From: Candidatus Latescibacterota bacterium | GTDB lineage: Bacteria; Latescibacterota; UBA2968; UBA8231 | Reading direction: 5' to 3' | DNA: 64,000 nucleotides | Assembly (NCBI GenBank): GCA_965208105.1 | Contig: OZ242318.1 | Coordinates: forward strand, 1,184,001 to 1,248,000 | Shown: positions 4,974 through 33,631 of the stretch, one piece after another | Numbering within the stretch: position 1 is the first letter of the stretch | Layout of the letters: each line of letters begins with the position of its first letter | Program-made: the position numbers and the translations under genes | Notes under the pieces: model-generated | Databases searched by the model: none | Seen by the model: only the letters and a program-made list of their open reading frames with translations | Told to the model about the DNA's origin: nothing

Positions 4974-4983
4974 CTCGCAGGGT

Positions 4984-6975: not shown

Positions 6976-7016
6976 CGCCGACTGAAGCCGGGTCACCGAA
7001 GAGAAAACGCACCTCA

Positions 7017-7907: not shown

Positions 7908-7913
7908 GTCGTT

Positions 7914-7942
7914 ATAGTAATATATTCACTATATATTGTCAA
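7914..7942 (-). promoter_or_regulatory. Sigma70 promoter of fic (leaderless) with overlapping inverted repeat
   Basis: TTGACA-17 nt-TACTAT, 6 nt before ATG; AATATA-N7-TATATT at 7919-7937. Confidence 0.7.
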
Positions 7943-8226
7943 ATATTCGTGAATGATCCGCGAAAAATTGGTTCTATTCACTATTTTTTGGTAAATATAA
8001 ATGAAGACGATGAGGAGAGAGAACAGAGCTGGTAGGTAGATCGGCGGCTTCCTGTGCAGCCCCCTTTCCCCCGCAACCCATCTTGATCGGCGCTGTGCCC
8101 GGCCTTATTTTAGGGCCTTCGCCCGCTGCGTCAACCGGCCCCTGCGGACCTGGATTCACCCCAGCCGCAGCCGCGGGCAATCCATCCCGTTTACTCGCAA
8201 TTCCCACCACCGAACGGAGGAAATCC

Positions 8227-10986: not shown

Positions 10987-11141
10987 CCGCCCTTCCTTGT
11001 CGAAAGTGTCCATGCAGCCGACCGCGGCCGCCTCATAGAATACCCCATTTTTTATTTTGCGCTATATTAACAGCCCGCCGGCGGGGAATGGCTGACAGCA
11101 GCCCCGCCGTCGTTTCATTCATCCTCAATAAGGGAGGGAAC

Positions 11142-12035: not shown

Positions 12036-12059
12036 CCCGCGGCCGCCAATGACCGAATC

Positions 12060-14990
12060 CTAGTAGAGACGCCCGTACTCGGTGAAGCCGATCAGGGTGC
12101 GCACGAAGAACGACCAGCTGTGGAACTCGTCGGCCTGCCGGAAGGGGTTGTCGAAATCCTTGCGGTTGCGCATGAGGCCGACGATGGTGAAGAGGTTGTA
12201 GCCGAAATAGCGCGAGCGGTTGGTCAGGCTGACGAAGGCGGTGCGCTGCTCGAAGCTGAGGCGCCGGCGGGCGCTGTCCTCGAGGCGGTAGGGCAAGGGC
12301 CCCATGCCCTGCAGCCCCATTCTCAGGTCAACCCGATCCATCAGGGGATACTCCAGGCGCAGGATGGGGATGGAGCGCCACTCGGAGCGCGTGGCGGTTG
12401 CGGCCTCCTGATCCAGCAGGCGCAGGAGCATGAACTTGTACTGCGGCGTCAGGCTCAGCCTGCCCAGGCTCCAGGTATACTGCGCCCGGCTGGACACGGT
12501 CCAGTAGTCCAGGCGGCGCCGGCGCTGGAAGATGCCCGGGCCCACCTCGCCGCCCTGCTGCCAGTTGAGCAGCAGGCGCACCTTCTGCACCAGGTGGAGG
12601 GATGACCAGGGGTTGAGGCTCCCCTCCAGGTAGGTCTCGTTGACCCAACTGTCGCGGTAGAGCAGAAGGTCCTCCCTCCTCTCCTTGTTGAAGAAGGAAA
12701 ACACGTTTATCTCCAGGCCCCCGTCCCCGGCTTTCACGCGGCCGCGGTTCGGCCTTTCCACCAGCGCCAGATACTCGTCGGCTATATCGTCCTGCACGCG
12801 GCGCAGGTGGTTCTCGAGGAAGAGACGCCGCAGCCGCCGCACACCCTCGCGTCTATAGCTCAGGATGGCATAGGTGGACCTGTTGCGCCCGGCGCCGGCA
12901 ACCTGGCCAACGGCGTAGCGTCCGGCGACCGCGGTCCAGCCCCGGGTCAGGTCCACCTGCCCGAACAGGTGCCCGCCGCGCTGGTCGGGGTCGTAGGGGA
13001 GGTCCGCATCCCAGTCGTCCTCGCGCTGGTCGGGCTCGCCGTTGTTGTTGCGGTCGAGGCCGTAGGTGTAGTCGTTGGGCTCCACGTCGAACATCAGGAA
13101 CGGCTCTTCGTAGTCGGGCAGGCTGTTGAAGTTGCGGTTGGTGTCGGGCCAGCCGTCGTTGTCCTCGTCCTGGCCCGGAAAGACCCCGGTGGGGTCCACC
13201 GAAACCGCATCCCTGCCGGCGCCGAGGATATGGCCAAGGGGCGCGTCGGGGTAGCGGTCGGCGTCCTCGTTGTCCTGCACCAGGCGCCAGTAGAGGGTGG
13301 CGTTGGTCAGGCCGGCCAGGTCGCCGTAATCGTACGTCAGCTCAGGTTTGAGATAGGTGCGCAGCTCGGTGCTGTAGTTCGGCTGCATGGAGAAGAACTC
13401 CGCGCCCACGCGCCCGCGCCCGAACCAGCGCAGGGCCTGCAGATAGAAGGCGTCGCCGCGGGCGGCGAACCGGGGCCCCTGCCCGAAGCGGCGCTCCCCT
13501 TCCTGGTGCGCCGGGTAGCGCGCGTAGACCGCCGAGCGCGCGTACTCGCCGTTGATCTCCAGGCCGGCGAGGCTGAAGTTGGCATCCGCGCCGTAGACGA
13601 AGAGAGCAGTGTTCTCCCCTACGTGGAAGCGTACCCGTTCCAGATTCGACAGGTCCCGGACATTGCCGGGGGCGCGCCGCACCGTGTGGTAATAGGTGCT
13701 GGTGAACTGGGAAGCAAAGTTGCGGCCGGTTGCATTCTTCTCCCACTGGACAGCCACGTCGATGCGGTAGTCGCTTCCGATCAGCGTCTCCACCTCCACC
13801 GAGCGCACCGCCGGTTCCTGCCTCAAGTCGAACATGTAGATCAGCACTTCATCGCCGTCGGCGCGGTGGACGGACCCCGGCGGTTCCACCACGTAGTTGG
13901 CCAGCAAGCCCTCCAGGTTGGTGGACGCGCTCACGTCCTGTCCGCTTTCGTGGGCCATCCGGTAGAGGTAGTCCGCATAGTGGGGAACTTCCCTGCCGCG
14001 GTAGTAGACGCCGCCGCCGAACGAGTAATATCCTATGGACGAGGGCCGGGTGTAGATGACGGGACGGAACTCGCCGGTGTTCCGGGAGACCGAGCCCACC
14101 TGGGTCGGCACGCCGCTGCGGTGGCGGATCACCTGGGGCGGGAGATCGGGCCTGGCCTCGCCGTCGAGGACGAGGCTGAGCTCCTGCACCACGGCGCCGT
14201 GGCCGTCGGCGGGCGAGTCGTCGGCGACGCGCACCATGATGAACTCGATGAGGGGATGGTCGGGCCGCACTCTCCCCTTGAGGCTGTTGCCCGGCCGGGT
14301 GCTCTGGTAGACGTGCAGGTTGACCCCGTTGAGGCCCAGCCGCAGGGCGCCGATGCGGGTCTGGGCGCGGCCCCCCAGAAGCAGGGTGTTGCTGTCGGAC
14401 ACGAAGGTGCCCTCGATGTTCCAGGGGGCGGAAATGCTGGTGGGGTTGGCGGGCTGGCGCTCCAGGCGCGAGGCCAGGGCCGTGATCTCGAGGCCCGGCG
14501 TGGCCAGATCCAGGCGCAGTCCGTTGAAGTCCACCTTCGACAGGGTGAGAGGGGTGAAGCGCGCGATCAGCCCGTCTCCCACGATTGCGCTCACGCCGCG
14601 GTCGCCCCAACTGTCGCGCGCCACCATCACGTGGTCGAACAGCGGGCGGAAGGCATTCAGGTCCTTGAACATGCGGCTGCCGAACTGCTGCCCCGGCAAA
14701 CGGGTCTCCGACCAGGTGTAGACCTCGTAGCCGGTGATGAGGTAGCTGCCCATGGAGCCGAAATAGGCCTGCGGCCGGCCCGCGAAGGGAAAGGAGTGGT
14801 CCGGCGGGTTGGTGAAGTTCCGCAAGGCATAGTTGCGATAGCCCGGTGGGTTGCGCTGCAGGAATGGCGAGGGCTCCACCACCTCGGGGACCTTGAGCTG
14901 GGCCTGACCCCTTTGCACCTGCGCCAACCCCCACCCCGGCGCGAGAGTCAGCAACAGGCTCCCGTACAGAAGAAATCTCAATGGTCTCAT
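12060..14990 (-). CDS. Large exported putative outer-membrane beta-barrel protein with Asp/Asn-rich repeats, paralogue 1
   Basis: Signal peptide MRPLRFLLYGSLLLTLAPGWGLA; amphipathic strands; QDEDNDGWPD/LDRNNNGEPD block; ends FFVRTLIGFTEYGRLY; three paralogues in the window. Confidence 0.65.
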   Translation of the reverse strand: MRPLRFLLYGSLLLTLAPGWGLAQVQRGQAQLKVPEVVEPSPFLQRNPPGYRNYALRNFTNPPDHSFPFAGRPQAYFGSMGSYLITGYEVYTWSETRLPGQQFGSRMFKDLNAFRPLFDHVMVARDSWGDRGVSAIVGDGLIARFTPLTLSKVDFNGLRLDLATPGLEITALASRLERQPANPTSISAPWNIEGTFVSDSNTLLLGGRAQTRIGALRLGLNGVNLHVYQSTRPGNSLKGRVRPDHPLIEFIMVRVADDSPADGHGAVVQELSLVLDGEARPDLPPQVIRHRSGVPTQVGSVSRNTGEFRPVIYTRPSSIGYYSFGGGVYYRGREVPHYADYLYRMAHESGQDVSASTNLEGLLANYVVEPPGSVHRADGDEVLIYMFDLRQEPAVRSVEVETLIGSDYRIDVAVQWEKNATGRNFASQFTSTYYHTVRRAPGNVRDLSNLERVRFHVGENTALFVYGADANFSLAGLEINGEYARSAVYARYPAHQEGERRFGQGPRFAARGDAFYLQALRWFGRGRVGAEFFSMQPNYSTELRTYLKPELTYDYGDLAGLTNATLYWRLVQDNEDADRYPDAPLGHILGAGRDAVSVDPTGVFPGQDEDNDGWPDTNRNFNSLPDYEEPFLMFDVEPNDYTYGLDRNNNGEPDQREDDWDADLPYDPDQRGGHLFGQVDLTRGWTAVAGRYAVGQVAGAGRNRSTYAILSYRREGVRRLRRLFLENHLRRVQDDIADEYLALVERPNRGRVKAGDGGLEINVFSFFNKERREDLLLYRDSWVNETYLEGSLNPWSSLHLVQKVRLLLNWQQGGEVGPGIFQRRRRLDYWTVSSRAQYTWSLGRLSLTPQYKFMLLRLLDQEAATATRSEWRSIPILRLEYPLMDRVDLRMGLQGMGPLPYRLEDSARRRLSFEQRTAFVSLTNRSRYFGYNLFTIVGLMRNRKDFDNPFRQADEFHSWSFFVRTLIGFTEYGRLY

Positions 14991-15078
14991 GGACCTGTCC
15001 TTCCCCGCCATCGATGCAGTCCCTCCGGCCCGCCCGGGTCGGTTCCCGGACCTGACGGCCCTCCTCGCCGGTGCGGAC

Positions 15079-16071
15079 TCAATGGCCGGCGCATTTGCGG
15101 CCTCCATCAGGGACCAGGGCCGGAGCCTCCCGCGCCGCGCCGTAGTCGCGCACCTCCAGGGGCGGGTGCCCCATGGGCCCGAAGCTGTCGAACTCGGCGC
15201 ACTGATCCGCCCCAGGGACGAATTCGACCTCGATTTCGGTGGAGCTCACCGTGCAACGCTGGAAGCCGAAGCGGGTATCGGCCTCGGTCCAGCGTTCGGC
15301 CAGCTGGGCGGTGTTGCCGGCGGGCTGGGTGCGGTAGAGGCGGATGCCGTCCACTACCTGGACCGGGCGCCCGGTGTGGACGTGGCCGCAGAACAGGATG
15401 TCCACCCCCGCCTCCTGCAGCAGGCCCCAGAGGCGCTGGCGGTGGGGCGGGTCGATGCTGAAGTACCAGTTGTCGTACTGGTCCGCGGCGGTGAGATCCC
15501 AGGCGGGCTCGTGCGGCTCCTCCATGAAGGGCCAGTAGTGCATCACGGCCACGTGATGGCGGGCGGGCGGCAGCCGGGGCAGGCGCTCGAGCAGGCGCCA
15601 GAGCCTTTCTTCGTGGGGCAGGCCCGACCCGGTCACGGCGGCGAAGAAGCCGGTGAAGCGCACCTGGCGGTAGAGGAAGGACCAGTGGACGGGACCGAAG
15701 TAGGAAGAGAAGAGGTCCAGCCGCTGCCCGGTCACGTTGAGGTCCGGATCGTACCATCCCAGCCCCTGCTCGTCCCACTTGCGCTTGAGACCCTGACACG
15801 GGGCGTGCTTGTTGCCCACGTCCATGTTGCCGGGAATGACGAAGGCGGGAAAGGGCAGGGAGTCCAGGTCCTCGCGCGCCTGCAGGTACTCGAACTCGTG
15901 GGTCTCGCCGTCGCGGGTCAGGTCGCCGCCGTGGAGGAGGAACTCGGCCCCGCTCGCCGCCATCTGTTCCTTGATGGCCGCCCAGCGCCGGTTGACCGCG
16001 GGGCGGAAGCGGTAGGAGCGCGGCGTGCCCATGTGGCTGTCGTTGACGTGCAGGAAGGTCCAGGTTTCCAT
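15079..16071 (-). CDS. Calcineurin-like metallophosphoesterase
   Basis: DSH, GGD, PGNMD, MH, GHVH. Confidence 0.88.
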   Translation of the reverse strand: METWTFLHVNDSHMGTPRSYRFRPAVNRRWAAIKEQMAASGAEFLLHGGDLTRDGETHEFEYLQAREDLDSLPFPAFVIPGNMDVGNKHAPCQGLKRKWDEQGLGWYDPDLNVTGQRLDLFSSYFGPVHWSFLYRQVRFTGFFAAVTGSGLPHEERLWRLLERLPRLPPARHHVAVMHYWPFMEEPHEPAWDLTAADQYDNWYFSIDPPHRQRLWGLLQEAGVDILFCGHVHTGRPVQVVDGIRLYRTQPAGNTAQLAERWTEADTRFGFQRCTVSSTEIEVEFVPGADQCAEFDSFGPMGHPPLEVRDYGAAREAPALVPDGGRKCAGH

Positions 16072-16077
16072 CCCCGA

Positions 16078-17160
16078 TTACTCCGAACTCGCCGCCGCCG
16101 GCAATCCCAGCTCGCGGCGCACCGTGCGCGCGGCCTGCACCAGCGAGCTGATCTTGGCGAAGGCCACCGGACGGGGCACGAACCACATGCCGCAGTCGGG
16201 GGCCAGGTGCAGGCGCTCCGGCCCCAGGACCTGCAAGGCCGCGCGGATGCGGTCCGCTATGTGGGAGGGCGATTCCACCTCCTCGGTGCCCAGGTCCAGC
16301 AACCCCAGAACCACGCCCTTGTCGCCGCAGTGGGCGAGCAGCTCCGGGCCATGTCCCGGCTGTTCGTACTCGATGCTGATCCGCTCGGTGCTCGAGGCGG
16401 CGATGGCCTCCAGGACCTCGGCGTAGTTGGGATCGGCGCGCTTGTCCCCGATGGTGGCGTAGCCGTAACAGACGTGGACCACCCTGGTAGCCCTGATCCC
16501 GTCGAAGGCCAGGTCCAGGGCCCTGCCGCCCCATTGCACCGCCATGTCGCGGCGGAAGTGGAAGTCGGGCTCGTCGAGCTGAACCACGTCCACCCCGGCC
16601 TCGTCCAGGGCGCGCAGCTCCCGGTTGATCGCCGCCGCCGCGGCCATGCCCAGGGCCTCCGGGTCGCGGTAGTGCTCGTCGGCCAGGCGCGCCGCCATGG
16701 TCAGCGGACCGATGACGGTCATCTTGGTGGGACGGCGGGTGTGGCGTTTGAGGAAGCCGAGGTCGTCCACCGTAATGGGGCCGGGCCAGGTGATCTCCCC
16801 CACCGCGCGCGGGGTCACCGCCGTCTGCAGGCGGGCTTCCACCTCGGGGTCCAGATCGACGAAGCTCATGTCGCGCTCGCTCATGGACCAGGGTCCCAGC
16901 TTCTCCCCGTCGATGCCGCCCATGTCGAAAAAGTAGGTGTCGAAGCGCTGCCGCCGCTGCTCGCCGTCGGTGATCAGGTCGAGCCCGGCGCGCTCCTGGT
17001 CGGCGATGGCCGCGATGGTCGCGTCGTCCTGGGCCTCGGCCAGGACCTCGGGGTCGGGGCGCCAGAAGCTGGAGCTGGGCGAGGTCACCCGCCGGTGCCT
17101 GATGAGCCAGTCGGGCTTGCTGTAGCTGCCCACCAGCTGGGTGCTCAGGAGCCCTGGCAT
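16078..17160 (-). CDS. Cobalamin-independent methionine synthase II-like (MetE C-terminal/core) Zn enzyme
   Basis: VGSY.KP, ITDGEQRR, GPLT, QLDEP, HVCYG, APDCG; only 360 aa. Confidence 0.88.
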   Translation of the reverse strand: MPGLLSTQLVGSYSKPDWLIRHRRVTSPSSSFWRPDPEVLAEAQDDATIAAIADQERAGLDLITDGEQRRQRFDTYFFDMGGIDGEKLGPWSMSERDMSFVDLDPEVEARLQTAVTPRAVGEITWPGPITVDDLGFLKRHTRRPTKMTVIGPLTMAARLADEHYRDPEALGMAAAAAINRELRALDEAGVDVVQLDEPDFHFRRDMAVQWGGRALDLAFDGIRATRVVHVCYGYATIGDKRADPNYAEVLEAIAASSTERISIEYEQPGHGPELLAHCGDKGVVLGLLDLGTEEVESPSHIADRIRAALQVLGPERLHLAPDCGMWFVPRPVAFAKISSLVQAARTVRRELGLPAAASSE

Positions 17161-17161
17161 C

Positions 17162-18610
17162 TCACTCGAACCAGTAGGAGTAGAAGCGCGCCCCCTTCAG
17201 GGTGAAGCGCAGGCGCACCGCCTTGCCGGCGTGCTCCGCCATTCCCCCCTCCCGCCAGGAGACCTGGACCCGCGGCCGGTCGGCGTCGATGGGGACCGAT
17301 GCCGCCAGCACCTCGCCGCCGTCTCCCAGGACCTCCGCCCGCAGGAACCCGGAAGCGCCGCCGGCCTTGCGCACGTCCACGTTGACCCACAGCTCCCCTC
17401 CGGGCGCGGTGAAGGGCTCGGTGAGCGCGCGGCCCTCCTCCCCCGCCGCATCCAGGGAGACGAAACCGTCGCGGCGCAGGACCGCCAGGCAGATGGCCCC
17501 GATGTCGGGGTCGGGGTCGGGATGGATCGAGGACTCCTTGCGGCCCGAGTAGTAGAACCAGAGCTCGTCGCCGCGCACCAGGGGATAGGAAGGGGGCAGA
17601 TTCTTGTTGAGGTCGTAGGCGCCGGAATGCATCGGCGACCAGGGGATGAATGTCCCCCGGTTCGCCGCCCGCGCCCAGTTGTGGAGGTCGCGGCTGCACC
17701 ACAACTGGATCAGGGTGAAGCGCAGGGTGTGGCTGCTCCAGCGCTCGCCGCGGGCGTGGTAGATGGCCGGCAGGGCCAGGAAGATGCCCTCGTAGCGGAA
17801 GACTCCGGCGTTGTAGATGTCCACGTTCTGCCACTGCCATTCCGGCGTGCCGGGAAAGGGCTTGAGGTAGTCGGCGTTGGCCGACCGCAGGAATTCCTCG
17901 ATGTGCAGGCGCCCCAGCTCCTGGTCCAGGTCGTCGGCCTGGATGGCGAGAACCGGCTCGCTCCAGTTCTCGAAGTCGGGGCTGGTGCTGATCATGTGGG
18001 AGCGCCCGTAGGTGCCGGTCTTCTTGAAGCTGAGGATGTACTGCGCGCCCAGGCCATCGTAGCTCAGGTTCCACTCGTCGAAGCTCGAGAGGCGGGCGTC
18101 CAGCCGGCTCCATTCGATCCCGTCGGAGGAGACCAGGAAGTCGAGGAAGCGCTCGAACCTCCTTCCCGGCCACGGCTTGCCCTCCGGGTCCACCCGCTCC
18201 GACGAATGCTGCACCCTGCGCCCCGTGTCCAGGTTGACCACGTGGGAGGTGATGCCCTTGAAGCGGCGCCCCTGGTCGGGGTCCGCCGGGTCGTAGAGGA
18301 CGTGGGCCTGGGGCACCATCTCCGCAGGCTGGAGGTCGGCGCCGGCCGGAGTCCAGTGCAGGCCGTCGACGCTCTCGTACCACCTTCCCTCCGCCACGAT
18401 CCTGAAGGCCTTCAGCTCCGGATTCCAGTGCGGGCCGCTGCGGGTCTGCACGTTGCGCTGGCCGCGGGTGAAGTCGGGCCGAATCACCGCCCCTTTCTTC
18501 GAGGGCTGGTGCAGGGTGCGGACCAGGTTCTCCACCTCGGCGAGGCCGTGATCGTCGACGAAGAGCTGCCGCTGTCCTGCCGGAACCTCGAACTTCTCGT
18601 CGTTACTCAT
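17162..18610 (-). CDS. Uncharacterised GH32/GH43-like beta-propeller protein, paralogue 3
   Basis: RQLFVDD, YNAGVFRYEG, SRDLHNW, LAVLRRDGFVSLDA; no signal peptide. Confidence 0.7.
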   Translation of the reverse strand: MSNDEKFEVPAGQRQLFVDDHGLAEVENLVRTLHQPSKKGAVIRPDFTRGQRNVQTRSGPHWNPELKAFRIVAEGRWYESVDGLHWTPAGADLQPAEMVPQAHVLYDPADPDQGRRFKGITSHVVNLDTGRRVQHSSERVDPEGKPWPGRRFERFLDFLVSSDGIEWSRLDARLSSFDEWNLSYDGLGAQYILSFKKTGTYGRSHMISTSPDFENWSEPVLAIQADDLDQELGRLHIEEFLRSANADYLKPFPGTPEWQWQNVDIYNAGVFRYEGIFLALPAIYHARGERWSSHTLRFTLIQLWCSRDLHNWARAANRGTFIPWSPMHSGAYDLNKNLPPSYPLVRGDELWFYYSGRKESSIHPDPDPDIGAICLAVLRRDGFVSLDAAGEEGRALTEPFTAPGGELWVNVDVRKAGGASGFLRAEVLGDGGEVLAASVPIDADRPRVQVSWREGGMAEHAGKAVRLRFTLKGARFYSYWFE

Positions 18611-18744
18611 CGATTTCTCCCGTGGGAAACCCTGCCTTCGGCAAGGAATGGCGGCCATGCTCCAAGCGAAGAATTTGGCACCCTGAAGCTGGTCCTGTCA
18701 AGAAAAAGTGGGTGAGCCGGAAAGTTCCGGAGCCTGCCCTCCCT

Positions 18745-20031
18745 CTACCACGAGTCGACGCCGGCGAGCTTGCGGCCCAGGGGGGTGAGCCTGGCCTCCT
18801 CCACGTCCAGCTCCAGGCCGAACTCGGCGTGCATGAGCTGCGCCACGTCCCATTCGTTCCAGATGCGGCGGTCGTCGCGGCCGTAGGCCTCCCCGCCGCT
18901 GATTGTATTCGGCCAGTGGTGCTCGTTCCAGACGCTGCGGTCGCCGAAGTCGAAGGCGGCCGGAGTGCGGAGCAGGAGCTCGGGCAGGCGGGCAAGCTGG
19001 GCTGGGCTCAGCCGCGGCTCGTGCTGCGGCGCCGGGATCCGCTGGATCGATGCGGCCAGGCCCTCCTCGATGCGCGCCACCACGGGAAGGCCTTCCTGGC
19101 GGGCGTAGGAGTGGTGAACCTCGACGGTGGTCTCGTCCACGAACTCGACCAGGGACTTTCTCAGGATGACCTCGCGGCCCTGCGAACGCACCCGCCAGCC
19201 CGGGTAGGTGGGATGCTCTCCCAGGTTGGCCTCGATGCGCGCGTGGGCCAGGTCGCTGCCGCGATGCCGCCGCAGCCAGCGCTCGACGCCGGCCTCCCGC
19301 ACTCCCAGGGCGTCGGCGATCACCGCCTGGTAGGTCCGCGCCAGCGGCAGGACCCCGCTGCCCGGACCGGCGCCGGCGGGGTGCATGAGAATGTACTGGG
19401 CCAGGCGCGGGCGCTTCGAGGTGTTGCGCCCATTGCCGTGCAGCAGGGCGCCGTGCCAGATGAGCAGGTCGCCGGCCTTGCCGGGAATGGGCACGATATC
19501 GAGCCCGGTGGCATCCGGAGTCTTCGGATGGCGGTCCGGCGGCTGGGTCTCGGCCCACTCCTCGAGCTTGCGGTGGAAGCCCGGAACGCACTGAAACCCG
19601 CCCTGGTCCGCCGCCGTGTCGGTCAGGTAGAGCACCCCCTGCACCCTGAGCGGAATGGGGCGAATGGTGGAATCCATGTCCCAGTGGATGAAGCCCTCGT
19701 ACTCCCACCGGGGACTTACGGGGGGACTCACCGCCACCCGGTCCCGGGAGACGATGAGCTCCTCGGTGCCCAGGAGCTCGGCGAAGGCGGCGTGAACCCG
19801 CGGCGCCTGGCGGTTATCCCAGAGGGCCTGATGGACCGTCAGGTTCACCAGCCCCGCACCGGAGAACTGCACCAGGTCGTAGCATTCCTCGGGGTTCGTG
19901 CAGTCCTTGCCGGTGAATGCCTGCACCGCCTCGAGGACGGCGTCGAGGTTTTCCGGGGGGACCGCATCGGGGATGACGACGTAGCCGTTCTCCTCCCAGA
20001 ACTCGCAGTCGCTGGAACTCAGCGCACCCAT
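18745..20031 (-). CDS. PhyH-family Fe(II)/2-oxoglutarate dioxygenase with ~200 aa C-terminal extension
   Basis: FWEENGYVVI, HWD, GGFQCVPGFH, KAGDLLIWH..LLHG. Confidence 0.85.
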   Translation of the reverse strand: MGALSSSDCEFWEENGYVVIPDAVPPENLDAVLEAVQAFTGKDCTNPEECYDLVQFSGAGLVNLTVHQALWDNRQAPRVHAAFAELLGTEELIVSRDRVAVSPPVSPRWEYEGFIHWDMDSTIRPIPLRVQGVLYLTDTAADQGGFQCVPGFHRKLEEWAETQPPDRHPKTPDATGLDIVPIPGKAGDLLIWHGALLHGNGRNTSKRPRLAQYILMHPAGAGPGSGVLPLARTYQAVIADALGVREAGVERWLRRHRGSDLAHARIEANLGEHPTYPGWRVRSQGREVILRKSLVEFVDETTVEVHHSYARQEGLPVVARIEEGLAASIQRIPAPQHEPRLSPAQLARLPELLLRTPAAFDFGDRSVWNEHHWPNTISGGEAYGRDDRRIWNEWDVAQLMHAEFGLELDVEEARLTPLGRKLAGVDSW

Positions 20032-20122
20032 TGTTCTCTCCTTCGGATTCGGAACGCCCTTGCGCGGCGGGGCGCCCCCTCAGTCGGACCTGTCGGCGGC
20101 GGACGCGGCATTCCGGTTTCTC

Positions 20123-20920: not shown

Positions 20921-20945
20921 CCGCTCTCCTCCATTCCCCCGGCGT

Positions 20946-26115: not shown

Positions 26116-29079
26116 TCAGAGCACCCGGCCGAATTCGGTGAAGCCGATCAGGTTGCGCACGAAGAACGACCAACCGTCGAAGTTCCTGAAACTCTGGTAG
26201 CGGTCGTCCCAGTCCAGCTTTTCCCGCTGCAGGCCCACGATGGTCTGCATGTCGTAGCCGAAGTAGCGCGAGCTGTTGGTCAGGGTGATCACCGCGGTGC
26301 GCTGCTCCAGGCTGTTGCGCTTCTCGGTGCGGTCGTCGAGGCGGTAGGGCAGCGGACCCCAGCCCTGCACACCCACCTGCAGCGCGCTGCGGCTCATCAG
26401 CAGGTACCTCAGCTTGAGGATGGGGATAATCCGGGACTCCGAGCGCAGGACGCTTCCCGACCCCTGGTCCGCCAGCCGCAGAATCAGGAACTTGAGCTGC
26501 GGATTCAGGCTGAATTTCCCCCAGTGCAGGCCGTAGTCCACCTGGCTCACCCAGGTCCGGAAGTCCAGCCGCCGCTGGCGCTGAAAAAGCCCGTTTGCCA
26601 GCCGGCCGCCCTGCTGCCAGTTCAGCCGCAGCCGCAGCTTCTGCACCAGGTGCAGTCCCGCAAATGGCCGGAACCGGCCCTCCAGGTAGGTCTCGTTGAC
26701 GTAGCTGTCCTGGTAGCCGAGCAGGTCCGGGCGCACCCTCAGAATCCCCCCCAGGCGCCGCACGGCTCCCTCGAATTGCTGCGTATAGGCGTCTATTCCC
26801 TCGAACCCGCCCAGCACGTATTCGTTGAACTCGTCGGGGATGTCGTCCTCCACGCGGCGGAACTGGTTCTCGATGAAGAGCCGCCGCACCCGCATGACCC
26901 CTTCCCTCCTGTAGTTCACCAGGGCATAGGTGGAGCGGTTGCGCCCCCCGCCTGACATACCTGCCACGGCGTATCGGCCCAGGGCAAGGGAACCGTGGCG
27001 CCCCAGGTTCAGCTGCCCGAAAAGGTGGAAGCCGCGCTGGTCCGCGTCGTAGGGGTAGTCGGCCGCCCAATCGTCCTCGCGGTGGTCGGGCTCGTCGTTG
27101 TTGTTGCGGTCGAGGCCATAGGCGTAGTCGTTGGGCTCCACCGCATACATAAGGAAGGTCTCCTCGTAGTCGGGGATGCCGTTGAAGTTCTGGTCCGTGT
27201 CCACCTGGCCGTCGCGGTCCTCGTCCTGCCCCGGGAACACTCCATCCCCTTCCCGCCCCCTCACCTGCGGACTGCCGAGAACATTGCCCAGGAGAACGTC
27301 GGGCCAGCGGTCCCCGTCCTCGTTGTCCTGCACCAGGCGCCAGATGACCGACTCGTTGGCGAGGTTGGTCATCACCCCGTAGGCGCGGTCCGAGCGGTAG
27401 CCGTGATCCTTGGCAAGATAGGTCTCCATCTCGGTGGTGAAGTCCGGATTCATGGAGAAGAACTCCGCCCCCAGCCTGCCGCGCCCGAAGCGGTGCAGCG
27501 CATTGACGAAGTAGGCCGAGCCTCCATGGCCGAAGCGCGGACTGCGGTCGATCAGAGGCTGCTCTCCCGCGCGGGCGGGGAAGCGCCCGTAGATGGTCGA
27601 GCGCGCGTACTCACCGCTCACCTCCAGCCATGGCAGCAGGAGGTTCATGTCGGCGCTGTAGGTGAAGATCGCCGTATTCTCCCCCACCTCGAACCGCACC
27701 TTCCGCAGGTTCGAGCCGTCCTCGACCCGGCCCCTGGACCGCAGCGCCTGGCGGAAGAAGGTGCTGCGAAAGCGCTGCTCGAACTTGGGCGCTCCGGCGT
27801 TTCCGGGATACACGTAGACGCCCGCCCACTCCAACCGGTAGTCGTCGCCGACCAGGGCCTCCACTTCAACCGACTCGACGAGGGGTTCCTCCTGGAGATC
27901 GAAAAGGAAGATCAGCTGATCGGGACCGTCGGCGCGCAGAATGCCCTCGGAGGTCTCGAGGGCGAAATTGGCCACCAGCCCCTCCAGGTGGGTATCGCCG
28001 CTCACGTCCGCTCCGGCCTCGTGGGCGAGGCGGTAGAGATAGTCGGCGAAGAGGGGGATCTCCCGTCCCCGATAGTAGCCCGGGGGACCGGCGAGGCTGG
28101 TGTAGTAGACCGGAAGGAAATTACCCGAGCCCGAGAGGGTGCGCCCCACCTGGGAGGGAGCGCCGGCGCGGTGGCGGATAACCCGGGGCTGCAGGTCCGG
28201 GCGGGGATGGCCGTTGACCACCAGGCCAACCTCCTGGACGCTGGCGCCGCCGAGGCCGTCCTCCGGCGCGTCGTCCGAGACGCGCACGATGAGCCACTCG
28301 AAGAGCGGCTGGTCCAGCCGCAGCATGCCCCTGGCGCTGTTGCCGGGCTGGGTGCTGTTGTAGGCGTGCAGGTTCGCCCCGTTCACCCCCAGGCTGAGGC
28401 GGCCCAGGTCGACCTGGGCGCGGGCACCCACCAGCATGGTCGAATGGTCGACCTCGATCTGGCCCACATTCTCGGCGGGCTGGTAGGTCTCCCGGTTGGG
28501 GCGCGCGATGCGCGATCCCACCCCGGTGAACTTGACGTAGGGCGTCGACAGATCCAGGCGCAGGCCGTTCAGATCGGTCTTCGACAAGGTCAGCGGACTG
28601 AAGCGGGCCAGCAGACCGTCCCCCGTCAGGATACTGTAGCCCCACCCGCCATAGCCGTCCCGCGCCACCGCCACGTTCGAGAACACCAGGTGCCAGGCCG
28701 ACCAGTCCTTGAAGAGCTCGCTGCCCCAGCGCTGTTCCGGCTGGCGCCGCTCGATCCAGTAGTACAGGTCGTATGCCGTGCTGAGATAGTTCCCCATGGG
28801 ATCGTAGATGTCCCGCTGGCGGTCGATCCCGAGGGCCACGCCACCCCCCTGCTGCGATCCCACCGTGCGCACCGACCAGGTGTGATCCGGGTACTGCTGG
28901 AAAGGATCGTAGACGAAGTTCCTGTAAGCCGGACGCTCGTAGCGCAGAAAAGGCCGGGATGCCACCACCTCGGAAACGGCGGGATGCTCCCCATCCTCCG
29001 CATCTGCCGCCGACAGCGGCAGCAGCGCTGCGGCGAGCACCGCCAAGACCGGTTTTCTGTGACGAGTTCGCCAGTCCAT
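26116..29079 (-). CDS. Large exported putative outer-membrane beta-barrel protein, paralogue 2
   Basis: Signal peptide (..VLAVLAAALLPLSAADA); QDEDRDGQVD/LDRNNNDEPD block; ends FFVRNLIGFTEFGRVL; start may be 29091. Confidence 0.65.
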   Translation of the reverse strand: MDWRTRHRKPVLAVLAAALLPLSAADAEDGEHPAVSEVVASRPFLRYERPAYRNFVYDPFQQYPDHTWSVRTVGSQQGGGVALGIDRQRDIYDPMGNYLSTAYDLYYWIERRQPEQRWGSELFKDWSAWHLVFSNVAVARDGYGGWGYSILTGDGLLARFSPLTLSKTDLNGLRLDLSTPYVKFTGVGSRIARPNRETYQPAENVGQIEVDHSTMLVGARAQVDLGRLSLGVNGANLHAYNSTQPGNSARGMLRLDQPLFEWLIVRVSDDAPEDGLGGASVQEVGLVVNGHPRPDLQPRVIRHRAGAPSQVGRTLSGSGNFLPVYYTSLAGPPGYYRGREIPLFADYLYRLAHEAGADVSGDTHLEGLVANFALETSEGILRADGPDQLIFLFDLQEEPLVESVEVEALVGDDYRLEWAGVYVYPGNAGAPKFEQRFRSTFFRQALRSRGRVEDGSNLRKVRFEVGENTAIFTYSADMNLLLPWLEVSGEYARSTIYGRFPARAGEQPLIDRSPRFGHGGSAYFVNALHRFGRGRLGAEFFSMNPDFTTEMETYLAKDHGYRSDRAYGVMTNLANESVIWRLVQDNEDGDRWPDVLLGNVLGSPQVRGREGDGVFPGQDEDRDGQVDTDQNFNGIPDYEETFLMYAVEPNDYAYGLDRNNNDEPDHREDDWAADYPYDADQRGFHLFGQLNLGRHGSLALGRYAVAGMSGGGRNRSTYALVNYRREGVMRVRRLFIENQFRRVEDDIPDEFNEYVLGGFEGIDAYTQQFEGAVRRLGGILRVRPDLLGYQDSYVNETYLEGRFRPFAGLHLVQKLRLRLNWQQGGRLANGLFQRQRRLDFRTWVSQVDYGLHWGKFSLNPQLKFLILRLADQGSGSVLRSESRIIPILKLRYLLMSRSALQVGVQGWGPLPYRLDDRTEKRNSLEQRTAVITLTNSSRYFGYDMQTIVGLQREKLDWDDRYQSFRNFDGWSFFVRNLIGFTEFGRVL

Positions 29080-31723: not shown

Positions 31724-33631
31724 TTACTTCAGCAAGGTCATGGACCGCGTCGCAGTGAAGCCGCCGGCTTCCATGCGATAGAAGTAGACCCCGCTTGAGA
31801 CCTTCCCGGCCCCCTTGTCGAGCCCGTTCCATACCGACTTGTAGGAACCGGCGCCCAGCTCCTCGTCCACCAGGGTGGCTACCAGCTGGCCGGCGGTGTT
31901 GAACACCTCGATGCGCACCTGACTGGCGAAGGGCACGCTGAACTCGATGGTGGTCTCGGGGTTGAACGGGTTTGGATAGGCGTCGCCCAGGACGTAGCTG
32001 TCGGGCGTGCTCGCCGGACCGAGCTCCTCGACCGCGGTCATGCTGCTCAACCTGCCGGTGAAGATCCCGTGGGGGATATAAATCAGCATCCCGCTGCCCT
32101 CACTGGTCCGTTCGGTCGGGGTGGCGATGTCGACACCGGTGGCGGGATACATGCCGTCGTACTTGCCGCTGCCGTCCCCGATCAGGCGGATGTGCTTGAG
32201 GGTGCTGCCGTAGTAGTAGGGACCCAGCTCCGGCTCGAAGGTGTGGAAGAACAGACCGGTGCCGTCGCGGCCGAAGGCCCCGAAGTTGTAGCCGATCTGG
32301 TTGTGCTGATCGATGGCTATGGACATCTTGCCCGTGGGATGGGCGTCCATGGACACGGTCACCGCGTTGCTGCCAGCGGCGTGCGAGGCGACCCCCAGCT
32401 CCTCGGCGGCCTCGGCGGAGAGCCAGTCCTTGATGCCGTCGCCGGTGGTGTTGCACCACTTGACGTTGCCGTCGTGGTCGGTGTGCACGAAGTGGTCGGT
32501 GGCGTGGTCGGTCATCCAGATCCCGTTGTCGTTCACCGCGAAGATCGAGATGCCCACTTGAGCGATGCTCTGATTGCCTTCGTCGTCCGTGTCGACGCGA
32601 TGGAACCAGTCGAGCATGTCGTTGAACCTGGTCATTTCTCCCGAGGTCTTGTCATAGACTTCGATGCCGATCAAGAGAGGGTCGCCGTTCCTGGTGCCGC
32701 TGTAGACGCTGTTCTGGTGCGGAATAACCCACCAGGTGCTGCCGCGGTCGGCGCCCTGGCCCTCGTCGCCGTAGGAGGTGTCGAGATCCAGGGTCTTGGC
32801 GGCGTCGTTGCGCTTCAGCTTGAGGATGCCGGTGGTGGTGCCCAGGTTTTCGTTGGCGCTGCTGCGGCTGCTCCATTGCACGCTCGGATCCATGTCGTCC
32901 GGGCGGTTGCCGCTTGCGTTGTTCTCCTCCTGGGGATCGAAAGCGGTGATGGTCCACTGCTCGTAGGCGGTGGGATTGGCGACGTAGTCGCGGTCCACGG
33001 TGCCGAAGTAGCAGACGTTGGGCGGCGTTTCCTGGTAGGGCGACCAGGTCTCCGGAGGATCGACGTTGGTGTCCACCGAGTGCTGGCCCCAGGCGCCGGA
33101 GTGGCCGGTGCCCACCAGGTTGGCCTCGAAGTCGTTGAAGGCGATGACGTCGTACTCGTAGTCTCCCGCCCCGGCCGCGCTGCCGTCCCAGGCGGTTCCG
33201 TCCCAGGTCCAGCTGTTGCTGCCGGCCTCGAGGTTCATCACCGGAGAGTGATTGACGTATTGCGGCTGCGGCGCCACCCTGATCCATGCGCCGTGGGGGC
33301 CGGTTTTGCCGGTATGGGTGGAGTTCATGTCGTAGATCACCACGGTGACGCGGGCGCGCTGGTTCAGCTCGAAGGGAATGGCCACCGAGCCCGAGCCGCC
33401 GTAGGCCACGTCGGGGGTGGTCACGACCATGCGGTTGAATACGCCGAGGCCGCTGCGGTCGGGGGCCTTCCAGGTGCCGCCCCCGTCGAGGAACAGGCCG
33501 CCGCGGGACTCCGCGTAGGTTCCCGCCGCTCCCCCTGGCAATCCGTACTGCCCGGTCCAGGTCTCGCCCCAGGCCGAGCCCGCCACCAGAAGCAGGCCGG
33601 CGCTGAGCATACTGGTCAAGATCTTCTGCAT
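31724..33631 (-). CDS. Secreted protein with N-terminal FlgD-Ig-like domain and C-terminal FlgD/T9SS type A-like domain, paralogue 1
   Basis: Signal peptide; WTWDG....GAGDYEY; AYPNPFNPETTIEF...SSGVYFYRMEAG...MTLLK. Confidence 0.82.
   Translation of the reverse strand: MQKILTSMLSAGLLLVAGSAWGETWTGQYGLPGGAAGTYAESRGGLFLDGGGTWKAPDRSGLGVFNRMVVTTPDVAYGGSGSVAIPFELNQRARVTVVIYDMNSTHTGKTGPHGAWIRVAPQPQYVNHSPVMNLEAGSNSWTWDGTAWDGSAAGAGDYEYDVIAFNDFEANLVGTGHSGAWGQHSVDTNVDPPETWSPYQETPPNVCYFGTVDRDYVANPTAYEQWTITAFDPQEENNASGNRPDDMDPSVQWSSRSSANENLGTTTGILKLKRNDAAKTLDLDTSYGDEGQGADRGSTWWVIPHQNSVYSGTRNGDPLLIGIEVYDKTSGEMTRFNDMLDWFHRVDTDDEGNQSIAQVGISIFAVNDNGIWMTDHATDHFVHTDHDGNVKWCNTTGDGIKDWLSAEAAEELGVASHAAGSNAVTVSMDAHPTGKMSIAIDQHNQIGYNFGAFGRDGTGLFFHTFEPELGPYYYGSTLKHIRLIGDGSGKYDGMYPATGVDIATPTERTSEGSGMLIYIPHGIFTGRLSSMTAVEELGPASTPDSYVLGDAYPNPFNPETTIEFSVPFASQVRIEVFNTAGQLVATLVDEELGAGSYKSVWNGLDKGAGKVSSGVYFYRMEAGGFTATRSMTLLK

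What the first reader, a model, noticed from the sequence alone, without database searches (positions are those of the whole stretch)
12060..14990. Unrecognised ~950 aa barrel-like family with a large inserted domain and a non-terminal beta-signal
Seen in all four copies: signal peptide; amphipathic strands (GLRLD..TP.LKFT, L.LG.NG.N.H.Y); a ~250 aa insert (VR..DDSP.DG.GG..VQE..L.VNG..RPDL...P.YADY.YR..HE.G.DVS); more strands (YSAD.NL...E..GEYARS); an acidic repeat block; then a long strand run ending FFVRTLIGF plus a 7-8 aa tail. Inference: an outer-membrane barrel carrying a soluble domain inserted mid-barrel rather than an N-terminal plug, with the final-strand Phe followed by a short tail instead of being C-terminal.
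Basis: partly seen in the sequence, partly recalled or inferred. Interest (0 to 1): 0.72.

Follow-up and report, generated by a model that had tools for sequence, protein, structure and literature searches.

The report
Giant outer-membrane barrel with inserted domains
This gene and its three copies in the window encode a very large, uncharacterised outer-membrane barrel protein that carries an inserted domain of unknown fold and a block of calcium-binding-like loops, and it probably lets nutrients into the cell.

Summary
Window 12060-14990 (-) encodes a 976-aa secreted protein with three paralogues in the window (51-53% identity).

- **Fold.** AlphaFold2 gives a confident model (pLDDT 86.6, pTM 0.87) made mostly of long antiparallel strands. 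Foldseek finds only outer-membrane barrels (36 hits at E<=1e-3). Deinococcus SlpA and an Mtr-complex chain come first, all at low TM-score.
- **Not a standard TonB receptor or porin.** There is no Plug, SLH or coiled coil.
- **Insertions.** Residues 230-450 fold on their own (pLDDT 91.6) and match no solved structure. Residues 536-669 hold four nearly invariant DxDxDG-like acidic loops.
- **C-terminus.** The last strand is a canonical beta-signal. It is C-terminal in 15 of 95 relatives and followed by a 7-8 aa tail in this subfamily.
- **Distribution.** The family has 681 representatives. At least 23 copies occur in one Candidatus Latescibacterota genome.
- **Context.** Copies sit among T9SS-sorted surface proteins, DUF6785 membrane proteins and catabolic enzymes.

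Best reading: a substrate-specific uptake channel of PUL-like loci. The barrel is well supported; the function is inferred from gene context.

The parts
12060..14990 (-). Target gene: 976-aa precursor of the barrel protein (stop codon 12060-12062)
   Evidence: GC3 0.89; AF2 model
14922..14990 (-). Signal peptide, residues 1-23 (cleavage after GLA, read by eye; no lipobox Cys)
   Evidence: Sequence; pLDDT <50 for residues 1-32. No signal-peptide predictor was available.
14631..14894 (-). Conserved N-terminal segment, residues 33-120 (short strands 74-77, 83-87, 91-95, 105-109; helix 111-118). Its position relative to the barrel lumen is unknown.
   Evidence: block pLDDT 44-84; nearly invariant N53, G81, G87; no Pfam match at E<=10
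14304..14630 (-). Barrel wall, first block: six long strands (121-128, 131-146, 150-164, 167-175, 200-213, 216-229)
   Evidence: DSSP of the AF2 model; alternating hydrophobic pattern
13641..14303 (-). Inserted alpha/beta domain, residues 230-450, with the nearly invariant DDSP.DG turn (257-263). It is in an extracellular loop by strand parity (inferred).
   Evidence: Folds alone with pLDDT 91.6 and pTM 0.87. Foldseek against PDB gives 0 hits at E<=1e-3, best E 0.037. No Pfam match at E<=10. Only 4 short unnamed relatives of 121-387 aa.
13386..13640 (-). Barrel wall, second block: strands 451-474, 477-491, 507-523, 526-535. This is the stretch that matches Pfam SlpA_C locally.
   Evidence: Pfam match at residues 429-540, E 4.1e-6, 25.9 bits, below the cut-off of 35
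12984..13385 (-). Second loop insertion, residues 536-669, with four DxDxDG-like acidic loops: 573-582 DN.D.D...D; 608-616 D.D.DG..D; 618-629 N.N.N...D..E; 646-659 D.N.N...D..E.D. These are putative Ca2+ sites.
   Evidence: Column counts of 88-95 of 95 sequences for the D/N/E positions; nearly invariant list; mostly coil, block pLDDT 54-95
12087..12983 (-). Barrel wall, third block: long strands 670-680, 685-696, 702-717, 720-734, 780-792, 798-817, 820-838, 845-860, 865-882, 887-894, 913-928, 931-946, 956-968. The variable loop 735-779 is included.
   Evidence: low alignment occupancy and pLDDT <50 at 751-765
12084..12113 (-). Beta-signal, residues 960-969 (SFFVRTLIGF)
   Evidence: the same motif is the very C-terminus (G[FYW]-COOH) in 15 of 95 relatives
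12063..12083 (-). Seven-residue tail TEYGRLY after the beta-signal
   Evidence: pLDDT <50 at 970-976
26116..29079 (-). Paralogue 2 (987 aa), followed 150 bp downstream on the same strand by a DUF6785/DUF6784 gene
   Evidence: 88% ortholog in L028
56735..59458 (-). Paralogue 3 (907 aa). It lacks about 45 residues around the start of the acidic loop and has 3 Cys.
   Evidence: 84% ortholog in L063
59463..62417 (-). Paralogue 4 (984 aa, start MRFSPTHIL), in tandem with paralogue 3
   Evidence: 89% ortholog in L063
23987..25966 (-). DUF6785+DUF6784 polytopic membrane protein (about 9 hydrophobic helices). Further copies lie at 29433-31427 (+), 41406-43379 (-) and 48965-50983 (-). Proposed inner-membrane partner.
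   Evidence: (E 1e-70 to 1e-83)
31724..33631 (-). Secreted protein with a T9SS C-terminal sorting domain and an N-terminal part of no known family. A second copy lies at 51062-52990 (-), 40% identical.
15079..20031 (-). Genes upstream of the target on the same strand, probably one operon: metallophosphoesterase 15079-16071, MetE-like 16078-17160, 498-aa 'prop500' protein 17162-18658, PhyH dioxygenase 18745-20031
   Evidence: gaps of 0-90 bp between the genes

Best explanation
The gene encodes a BAM-inserted outer-membrane beta-barrel of a large uncharacterised family found in Candidatus Latescibacterota and Gemmatimonadota. A Sec signal peptide takes it to the periplasm. The C-terminal strand (..FFVR.LIGF) serves as the beta-signal. 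At least 22 long strands form a wide barrel.

By strand parity counted from the C-terminus, all tight 2-6 residue turns face the periplasm. The long loops face outward or fold back into the lumen. Two of these loops are very large:
- a 220-aa autonomous alpha/beta domain (230-450) with no solved counterpart;
- a 134-aa loop (536-669) with four nearly invariant DxDxDG-type acidic loops that most likely bind Ca2+.

I propose that these insertions, possibly with the conserved N-terminal segment, constrict the wide pore and give it its selectivity.

I propose that the protein is a substrate-specific, TonB-independent uptake channel. Each paralogue would serve a different catabolic locus. It would pass small organic or glycan-derived substrates to the periplasm, where a DUF6785/DUF6784 polytopic membrane protein takes them into the cytoplasm. 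Co-encoded enzymes would then act on them (PhyH dioxygenases, a propeller-like 500-aa family, xylose-isomerase-like TIM barrels). T9SS-sorted surface proteins, some with discoidin domains, may capture substrate at the surface.

Shown: the gene family, the signal peptide, the beta-signal, the predicted barrel fold, the autonomous insert, the conserved acidic loops, the paralogue expansion and the gene neighbourhood. Inferred: the topology of the loops, Ca2+ binding, the direction of transport, the substrates and the partners. My confidence is about 0.9 for an outer-membrane barrel and about 0.5-0.55 for an uptake channel.
For: **Fold**
- The AF2 model has mean pLDDT 86.6 and pTM 0.87, with 626 of 976 residues at pLDDT >=90.
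- Foldseek against PDB gives 36 hits at E<=1e-3, and every one listed is an outer-membrane barrel entry. [quoted passage not shown] TonB receptors, OmpG, LptD, FimD and SusC follow.
- Pfam SlpA_C matches locally in 4 of 4 window copies and in 11 of 50 distant representatives. All these matches are sub-threshold, and the target's match lies on barrel strands of the model.
- Hydrophobic/polar alternation across 95 sequences coincides with the predicted strands.

**Targeting**
- All 4 copies have a signal peptide.
- 15 of 95 relatives end in G[FYW]-COOH. A looser beta-signal pattern lies within 8 residues of the C-terminus in 65 of 95.

**Insertions**
- The insert folds alone at pLDDT 91.6.
- The acidic D/N/E positions are kept in 88-95 of 95 sequences. 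A strict DxDxDG..D-like motif occurs at least twice in 77 of 95.
- The SlpA paper describes pore-lining insertions held by metal sites in that barrel (PMC9388160, passages read).

**Function**
- The family has 681 representatives at E<=1e-3.
- At least 23, 20 and 18 distinct long copies occur in three Latescibacterota MAGs.
- Each window paralogue has its own 84-89% ortholog in one MAG, with support 100, so the paralogues are old and retained.
- Within +-10 kb of 74 loci, prop500 occurs in 41, PhyH in 34, the T9SS-CTD family in 34, DUF6785 in 28 and FG-GAP/ASPIC in 21. At least one occurs in 65, and a second barrel in 25.
- Same-strand neighbours within 400 bp occur in 60 dereplicated loci as follows: prop500 in 10, T9SS-CTD in 5, DUF6785 in 4.
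- Same-strand counts are DUF6785 18:4 and prop500 46:15.
- Locus L032 reads: CTD/discoidin, barrel, barrel, CTD/discoidin, barrel, prop500, CTD protein, FG-GAP/ASPIC, TPR, DUF6785/6784, TIM barrel. About ten orthologous loci share the core arrangement barrel, barrel, barrel, prop500, CTD protein, FG-GAP, DUF6785.
- In the window, paralogue 2 is followed directly by a DUF6785 gene.
Against: - No coordinates were available to me. Barrel closure, strand number, pore size and the position of the insertions (lumen or outside) are not measured.
- Foldseek TM-scores are low (0.10-0.37), so there is no close solved homologue to lean on.
- Strand parity leaves a problem at the N-terminus. The first long strand (121-128) would run outside-to-periplasm. 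So either a short strand was missed or the N-terminal segment crosses the lumen.
- The context statistics have no random-region control. The partner families are themselves highly expanded in these genomes. Against a 0.65 same-strand baseline the strand biases are not significant (p 0.055-0.25). PhyH and FG-GAP show no strand bias.
- The target copy itself has no adjacent DUF6785 or T9SS-CTD gene. It ends an operon of cytoplasmic enzymes.
- Nothing identifies a substrate, an energy source or the direction of transport.
- Ca2+ binding is inferred from a motif recalled from the literature. Pfam finds no TSP_3 or EF-hand match.
Confidence: 0.55

Rival explanations
1. The barrel is a surface-display or secretion platform linked to the type IX secretion system. 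It would anchor or help release the co-encoded proteins that carry T9SS C-terminal sorting domains, rather than importing solutes.
For: A T9SS-CTD family gene lies within 10 kb in 34 of 74 loci. It lies directly upstream or downstream on the same strand in 5 of 60 dereplicated loci. L032 alternates CTD/discoidin genes with barrel genes. SprA appears among the Foldseek hits, though only at rank 50 with E 1.7e-3.
Against: Forty of 74 loci show no such gene with my HMM, the target's own operon included. SprA and PorV are not among the better structural matches. At least 23 paralogues per genome, set inside catabolic operons, fit uptake better than a shared secretion machine.
Confidence: 0.12
2. 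It is a structural outer-membrane scaffold in the manner of Deinococcus SlpA or OmpM. It would be abundant and stabilise the envelope, with a pore that is filled and not used for transport.
For: SlpA is the best structural hit and the only Pfam lead. The SlpA barrel also carries metal-stabilised insertions in the pore, and its authors doubt a pore role (PMC9388160, passages read).
Against: There is no SLH domain in 4 of 4 window copies or in 50 of 50 representatives. There is no coiled coil; the longest helix is 11 residues. No longer fused relatives were found, which is weak evidence. Dozens of diverged paralogues per genome inside catabolic loci are not expected of a scaffold.
Confidence: 0.08
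3. It is an export conduit or sheath: either an MtrB-like barrel around a periplasmic partner protein, or a polymer export pore.
For: Chain B of the Mtr complex is the second Foldseek hit (E 1.6e-7, TMt 0.31). That this chain is the MtrB barrel is my recollection. The barrel is wide and has no Plug domain.
Against: There are 0 CxxCH motifs in 40 window genes. No polysaccharide-export or cytochrome families appear in the Pfam scans of the neighbours. The neighbours are catabolic enzymes and a polytopic membrane protein.
Confidence: 0.05
4. It is not a membrane barrel at all, and the AF2 model and the Foldseek hits mislead.
For: TM-scores to all solved barrels are low. The protein is unusually Arg-rich (10.5%). 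A Kyte-Doolittle amphipathicity scan gave only weak signal.
Against: The model has pTM 0.87, and all five models have mean pLDDT 81-87. All significant Foldseek hits are outer-membrane barrels. A signal peptide and a canonical terminal beta-signal are present in relatives. Alternation is clear with a hydrophobic-fraction scale.
Confidence: 0.03

Closest known systems
SlpA of Deinococcus radiodurans / Thermus (Pfam SlpA_C PF21620; PDB 8ae1, 7zgx, 8agd)
   Same: It is a very large single-chain outer-membrane barrel. It is the best Foldseek hit (E 9.7e-8) and the only Pfam lead. SlpA also has long loop insertions with acidic metal-binding sites that line the pore (PMC9388160).
   Different: There is no SLH domain and no coiled-coil stalk. 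The Pfam score is below the cut-off and covers only about 75-110 of 656 profile positions. TM-score is 0.20. The 220-aa insert and the four-loop acidic block have no counterpart that I could detect. Copy number is dozens per genome, against the one or two reported for SlpA. The setting is catabolic operons of the FCB-group phyla, not Deinococcota.
MtrB-type porin of the Shewanella Mtr complex (PDB 6r2q chain B)
   Same: It is the second Foldseek hit, with the best TM-score normalised to the target among the large barrels (0.31). It is a wide plug-less barrel.
   Different: No multihaem cytochrome partner is present (0 CxxCH in 40 window genes). There is no sequence similarity.
TonB-dependent transporters, including SusC of Bacteroidota polysaccharide utilisation loci
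   Same: The proposed working analogy rests on many diverged paralogues per genome, each embedded in a catabolic locus with surface proteins and an inner-membrane protein. These transporters are weak Foldseek hits (E 3e-5 to 1e-3).
   Different: There is no Plug domain and no TonB_dep_Rec Pfam match. No SusD-like neighbour was found in the Pfam scans. Pore-filling mass would come from loop insertions rather than from an N-terminal plug, which is an inference.
LptD (26-strand barrel with its lumen filled by LptE)
   Same: It is a large barrel that needs a lumen-filling element. It is a Foldseek hit at E 8e-5 to 1e-3.
   Different: There is no LptD N-terminal jellyroll and no Pfam match. It is multi-copy, and no LptE-like neighbour was seen.

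Membership tests
Bacterial outer-membrane beta-barrel proteins (BAM substrates) | N-terminal Sec signal peptide | tested here: met
   All four copies start with a basic n-region, a hydrophobic h-region and an A-x-A-like site. This was read by eye; no predictor was available.
Bacterial outer-membrane beta-barrel proteins (BAM substrates) | C-terminal beta-signal (alternating hydrophobic residues ending in an aromatic residue) | tested here: met
   The motif ..FFVR.LIGF is present. 15 of 95 relatives end at G[FYW]-COOH. The window copies add a 7-8 aa tail.
Bacterial outer-membrane beta-barrel proteins (BAM substrates) | Closed antiparallel transmembrane barrel | tested here: inconclusive
   AF2 gives at least 22 long antiparallel strands at high confidence, and all 36 significant Foldseek hits are outer-membrane barrels. 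Closure and strand count could not be measured without coordinates.
SlpA/OmpM-type OM-peptidoglycan connectors | N-terminal SLH domain | tested here: not met
   No SLH Pfam match at E<=1 in 4 of 4 window copies, nor at E<=0.01 in 50 of 50 representatives.
SlpA/OmpM-type OM-peptidoglycan connectors | Long trimeric coiled-coil stalk | tested here: not met
   The longest helix in the AF2 model is 11 residues (338-348).
SlpA/OmpM-type OM-peptidoglycan connectors | SlpA_C barrel (Pfam PF21620) at or above the gathering score | tested here: not met
   Scores of 17.3-25.9 bits against a cut-off of 35 in the four copies, and 16.5-30.2 bits in 11 of 50 representatives. A precomputed PF21620.6 label sits on 48 of 120 listed close relatives. 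So remote homology of the barrel is plausible but not established.
SlpA/OmpM-type OM-peptidoglycan connectors | Homotrimer | not testable with these tools
   Three copies exceed the 1000-residue limit of complex prediction.
TonB-dependent transporters / SusC | N-terminal Plug domain (PF07715) and TonB_dep_Rec barrel (PF00593) | tested here: not met
   No such Pfam match in the 4 copies, in the 50 representatives, or in the N-terminal piece alone at E<=10.
TonB-dependent transporters / SusC | SusD-like lipoprotein encoded next to the barrel | tested here: not met
   No SusD-family Pfam match among 38 window ORFs or 11 L032 ORFs.
MtrB-type cytochrome sheath | Co-encoded multihaem cytochromes | tested here: not met
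   0 CxxCH motifs in 40 window genes.
DxDxDG-type calcium-binding loops (thrombospondin type 3-like) | Repeated D/N-x-D/N-x-D/N-G-x-x-D motif; metal bound | tested here: inconclusive
   The motif is met: four loops with 88-95 of 95 conservation. There is no Pfam TSP_3 or EF-hand match. Metal binding is not testable here. The motif definition is recalled, not taken from a call.

The most novel reading that the evidence does not exclude
Latescibacterota and related Gemmatimonadota run a previously undescribed, TonB-independent counterpart of the Bacteroidota SusC/SusD system. Dozens of diverged giant barrels would be gated by a Ca2+-stabilised loop block and capped by a domain of new fold. Each would be paired with T9SS-delivered surface binding proteins and with DUF6785/DUF6784 inner-membrane permeases, feeding dedicated dioxygenase and propeller-enzyme pathways.
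Probability: 0.3. Interest if true: 0.8.

Novelty: new variant of a known kind. Interest (0 to 1): 0.62.

Why it matters
Outer-membrane uptake is understood mainly from porins and TonB-dependent transporters of Proteobacteria and Bacteroidota. This family has 681 sequence clusters and dozens of copies in each genome of an uncultured phylum. It appears to solve the same problem with a different architecture: a very wide barrel whose extra mass comes from loop insertions, one of them a domain with no solved counterpart. If the uptake reading is right, three things follow:
- it gives a handle for predicting what these largely uncultured bacteria feed on, by reading each barrel's locus;
- it assigns a first role to DUF6785/DUF6784;
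- it adds a new class of large gated barrels of interest for structural biology and nanopore work.

If it is only a structural protein, it still extends SlpA-like barrels well outside Deinococcota.

Tried and rejected
**Searches that found nothing**
- Sequence searches of the PDB with profiles A1 and A2 gave nothing significant (best E 0.03-0.66, unrelated proteins).
- NCBIfam found no family.
- Pfam on the insert, the acidic block and the N-terminal piece alone at E<=10 found none.
- The ESM Atlas holds no model. The nearest named cluster is a DUF6029 TonB-receptor-like barrel at 0.89, a lead only.
- A search for longer fused relatives (1709-4880 aa) found none, which is weak evidence.
- A search for stand-alone relatives of the insert (121-387 aa) found 4 unnamed hits at 47-56% identity. 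They are probably fragments of barrel genes.
- PDB sequence searches for a DUF6785 copy and for one prop500 protein (P0207) found none.

**Analyses that gave little**
- The Kyte-Doolittle period-2 scan on A2 gave weak signal. A hydrophobic-fraction scale worked better.
- My own mean-field covariation analysis (355 sequences, Meff 182, reduced alphabet) was dominated by gap artefacts and is discarded.
- The tandem-repeat scan of the gene found nothing relevant.
- The promoter and terminator scan of 11000-21000 found nothing above the shuffles.
- Rfam at gathering thresholds found no match in the window, so there is no riboswitch clue to a substrate.

**Literature**
- 'DUF6785' found 0 papers and 'PF21620' found 0 papers.
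- Searches on Latescibacterota plus outer membrane, on Latescibacteria plus sponge plus PhyH, and on Latescibacteria plus T9SS/PUL found no description of this family in the listings.
- PMC12993501 and PMC4454575 (passages read) and PMC10629564 (passages read) do not mention it.

**Not done or not available**
- Complex prediction was not used. A trimer or a barrel-plus-partner pair exceeds the size limit, and neighbourhood alone is not reason enough for a cut-down pair.
- No AlphaFold DB fold library was on hand, so 'no solved counterpart' for the insert refers to the PDB only.
- Model coordinates could not be read.

Full report
**What is in the sequence**

The window is about 67% G+C. The frame 12060-15107 on the minus strand is open and has the codon-position G+C bias of a real gene (GC3 0.89). 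The start at 14990 gives a 976-aa protein that begins with a Sec-type signal peptide (MRPLRFLLYGSLLLTLAPGWGLA|Q, read by eye).

Three further copies lie at 26116-29079, 56735-59458 and 59463-62417, all on the minus strand. They are 53, 51 and 53% identical to the target along the whole length (alignment A1).

**Database recognition**

- NCBIfam has no model for the four proteins.
- Pfam gives one lead, a local match to SlpA_C (PF21620), the barrel of the Deinococcus S-layer protein SlpA. E-values are 4e-6 to 1.6e-3 and scores are 17-26 bits, under the 35-bit cut-off. The match covers only residues ~430-540 of the target.
- The same local, sub-threshold match recurs in 11 of 50 distant family representatives. 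No other family recurs.
- Profile searches of PDB sequences find nothing.
- Public records that carry a name call relatives 'hypothetical protein' of Gemmatimonadota.
- 48 of the 120 listed close relatives carry a precomputed PF21620.6 label.

**Size and range of the family**

A word-indexed search found 299 relatives among 8000 scored candidates. All but one of the 120 listed are 915-1030 aa long. A full HMMER scan of 1.84 billion cluster representatives with the profile of the four copies found 681 at E<=1e-3 and 199 at E<=1e-30. Full-length members are 850-1060 aa.

In the species-representative genome collection, 194 stretches encode a relative, and 74 loci were kept. Nearly all are from Candidatus Latescibacterota MAGs, with a few labelled Gemmatimonadota. 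Three MAGs hold at least 23, 20 and 18 distinct long copies, which are lower bounds.

In a FastTree of 105 long copies, each window paralogue pairs with its own 84-89% ortholog in one Latescibacterota MAG (support 100). The local gene order is the same. The paralogues are therefore old and retained, and the window most likely comes from a close relative of that MAG.

**Structure**

AlphaFold2 with a 95-sequence alignment (25-72% identity, A2) gives mean pLDDT 86.6 and pTM 0.87. The only low-confidence stretches are 1-32, 60-71, 751-765 and 970-976.

The model is dominated by long antiparallel strands, grouped as follows:
- 121-229: six strands;
- 451-535: four strands;
- 670-734: four strands;
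- 780-968: nine long strands.

Tight turns of 2-6 residues (129-130, 165-166, 214-215, 475-476, 524-525, 681-684, 718-719, 793-797, 839-844, 883-886, 929-930) alternate with loops. Some loops are short. Seven are long: 176-199, 230-450, 492-506, 536-669, 735-779, 895-912 and 947-955. I counted back from the C-terminus, which is periplasmic in bacterial outer-membrane proteins (established knowledge). On that count the tight turns are periplasmic and the long loops extracellular. This is an inference.

Foldseek against the PDB returns 36 hits at E<=1e-3, and all of those listed are outer-membrane barrels:
- SlpA 8ae1_A first (E 9.7e-8);
- chain B of the Mtr complex (E 1.6e-7);
- two more entries of the SlpA-containing S-layer deinoxanthin-binding complex (8agd_A, 7zgx_A);
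- then TonB-dependent receptors, OmpG, LptD, FimD and SusC;
- SprA only at rank 50, above that threshold (E 1.7e-3).

TM-scores are low throughout (0.10-0.37), as expected when strand numbers differ and no close homologue is solved. I could not read the coordinates. The exact strand number (22 from the long strands, possibly more), barrel closure and the place of the insertions remain unmeasured.

One inconsistency is open. By parity the first long strand would run from outside to periplasm. So either a short strand (for example 105-109) is part of the wall, or the conserved N-terminal segment 33-120 passes through the lumen.

**The insertions**

Residues 230-450, predicted alone with the same alignment, give the same secondary structure with pLDDT 91.6 and pTM 0.87. 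This is therefore an autonomous alpha/beta domain and not part of the barrel wall.
- Foldseek finds no PDB match at E<=1e-3. The best has E 0.037, probability 0.05 and TM 0.11.
- Pfam finds nothing at E<=10.
- A search for proteins of 121-387 aa finds only four unnamed relatives at 47-56% identity, probably gene fragments.

The second insertion, 536-669, is mostly coil in the model but is the most conserved part of the family. It has four loops of the form D/N-x-D/N-x-D/N-G-x-x-D(-x-x-E), at 573-582, 608-616, 618-629 and 646-659. Their acidic positions are kept in 88-95 of 95 sequences. I recall this pattern as the DxDxDG calcium-binding motif of thrombospondin type 3-like repeats; no tool confirmed that. 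The SlpA paper reports that insertions lining that barrel's pore are stabilised by acidic metal sites (PMC9388160, passages read), which is a suggestive parallel.

**The C-terminus**

The last strand (956-968) carries ..FFVRTLIG, with F969 following it, and the 7-aa tail is disordered. In 15 of 95 relatives the protein ends exactly at G[FYW]. A looser version of the motif lies 0-8 residues from the end in 65 of 95. The beta-signal is thus canonical, and the tail is a feature of this subfamily.

**Gene neighbourhood**

The window also holds the following:
- four DUF6785+DUF6784 proteins, each with about 9-10 hydrophobic helices;
- two secreted proteins with T9SS sorting domains;
- two FG-GAP/ASPIC proteins, each with a TPR neighbour;
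- at least six PhyH dioxygenases;
- three members of an unnamed 500-aa cytoplasmic family ('prop500'), whose nearest named Atlas clusters are BNR/sialidase-like propellers at 0.92, a lead only;
- metallophosphoesterases;
- a xylose-isomerase-like TIM barrel directly upstream of paralogue 4.

The target ends an operon-like run of metallophosphoesterase, MetE-like, prop500 and PhyH genes. Paralogue 2 is followed 150 bp downstream by a DUF6785 gene.

I built HMMs from the window copies and searched the 74 loci with them. The results are:

| Family | Loci with a hit within +-10 kb (of 74) | Loci with a same-strand neighbour within 400 bp (of 60 dereplicated) |
|---|---|---|
| prop500 | 41 | 10 |
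| PhyH | 34 | 3 |
| T9SS-CTD family | 34 | 5 |
| DUF6785 | 28 | 4 |
| FG-GAP/ASPIC | 21 | 2 |

At least one of these families, or a metallophosphoesterase, occurs in 65 of 74 loci, and 25 hold a second long barrel gene. The 60 dereplicated loci remain after dropping 14 loci, most of them near-duplicate orthologous loci and two short contigs.

Locus L032 reads: CTD/discoidin protein, barrel, barrel, CTD/discoidin protein, barrel, prop500, CTD protein, FG-GAP/ASPIC, TPR, DUF6785/6784, TIM barrel. About ten orthologous loci share the core arrangement barrel, barrel, barrel, prop500, CTD protein, FG-GAP, DUF6785.

There are caveats. There is no random-region control. The partner families are themselves expanded. 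Strand co-orientation (DUF6785 18:4, prop500 46:15, T9SS-CTD 17:6) is significant against 0.5 but not against a 0.65 baseline.

**Interpretation**

The protein is, with high confidence, a BAM-dependent outer-membrane barrel of unusual size and build. The paralogue expansion, the retention of old paralogues and the setting in catabolic loci fit a substrate-specific uptake channel best. So do the surface-sorted proteins, some with carbohydrate-binding discoidin domains, and the polytopic inner-membrane protein in these loci. In this it works like SusC-type transporters in polysaccharide utilisation loci. It is not a member of that family: it has no Plug domain, no TonB-receptor Pfam match and no SusD neighbour.

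It is also not an SlpA/OmpM-type tether. It has no SLH domain, no coiled coil and many copies per genome. Its barrel may still be remotely homologous to SlpA_C.

Rivals remain possible at low probability:
- a T9SS-linked display platform;
- a structural scaffold;
- an export sheath, which is weakened by 0 CxxCH motifs in 40 window genes.

**Novelty**

Seven literature searches found no description of this family or of DUF6785 in the listings. Three papers read in passages do not mention it. I rate it a new variant of a known kind. It is an outer-membrane barrel, probably SlpA-related, with a new inserted domain, a conserved calcium-loop block and a PUL-like genomic role.

**Limits**

- Model coordinates could not be read.
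- No AlphaFold DB fold library was available.
- Function rests on gene context without a genome-wide control.

Noticed in passing
window 23987-25966 (-), 29433-31427 (+), 41406-43379 (-), 48965-50983 (-): There are four paralogous DUF6785+DUF6784 proteins (about 660 aa, 8-10 hydrophobic helices each). The family is uncharacterised: no paper mentions it and it has no PDB relative. It recurs next to barrel genes in other genomes and is a candidate inner-membrane permease.
   Followed up: partly
window 5309-6940 (-), 9502-11013 (-), 17162-18658 (-): These are three paralogues of an unnamed 500-540 aa cytoplasmic family ('prop500') with no Pfam or NCBIfam model. The nearest Atlas clusters are unnamed and commonest in Planctomycetota. 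The nearest named clusters are BNR/sialidase-like propellers (0.92, lead only). It is the family most often found beside the barrels (41 of 74 loci).
   Followed up: partly
window 18745-23959 and 43484-44404: There is a cluster of PhyH-type Fe(II)/2-oxoglutarate dioxygenases: four in a row on the minus strand and one on the plus strand, plus a sixth at 43484. This suggests oxidative catabolism of an unidentified substrate class.
   Followed up: no
window 31724-33631 (-), 51062-52990 (-): Two 40%-identical secreted proteins have a FlgD_ig/Por_Secre_tail T9SS sorting domain and a 550-aa N-terminal part of no known family. Related loci have T9SS-CTD proteins with discoidin domains directly beside barrel genes.
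   Followed up: partly
window 33897-40261: FG-GAP/ASPIC (UnbV) proteins alternate with TPR proteins: 33897-35609 (-), TPR 35606-37264 (-), 37090-38937 (+), TPR 38867-40261 (-). The same FG-GAP plus TPR pairing is seen in L032.
   Followed up: no
window ~4000-8000: G+C drops to 0.56-0.62 here, against about 0.67 elsewhere. The stretch holds a prop500 paralogue (5309-6940) and a Fic/DOC protein (7017-7907). It may be a more recent acquisition.
   Followed up: no
window 56735-59458 (-): Paralogue 3 lacks about 45 residues around the start of the acidic loop, namely ~32 residues before it and ~15 within it (alignment columns ~567-598 and ~617-631 of A1). It lacks part of the variable stretch of the insert. 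It is the only copy with cysteines (3).
   Followed up: no
window 62531-63340 (-): A xylose-isomerase-like TIM barrel (AP_endonuc_2, E 2e-22) lies directly upstream of paralogue 4. The listed ORF (62531-63745) starts too early and overlaps the next gene. The same family closes the L032 operon.
   Followed up: partly
window 44517-47093 (-): This 858-aa ORF has a weak DUF3604 / CehA-McbA metallohydrolase match only at residues ~570-680. Its first ~120 residues are Arg/Gly-rich and look non-coding, and the ORF overlaps the AIR-synthase-related gene at 46724-47764. The true start is probably further in.
   Followed up: no
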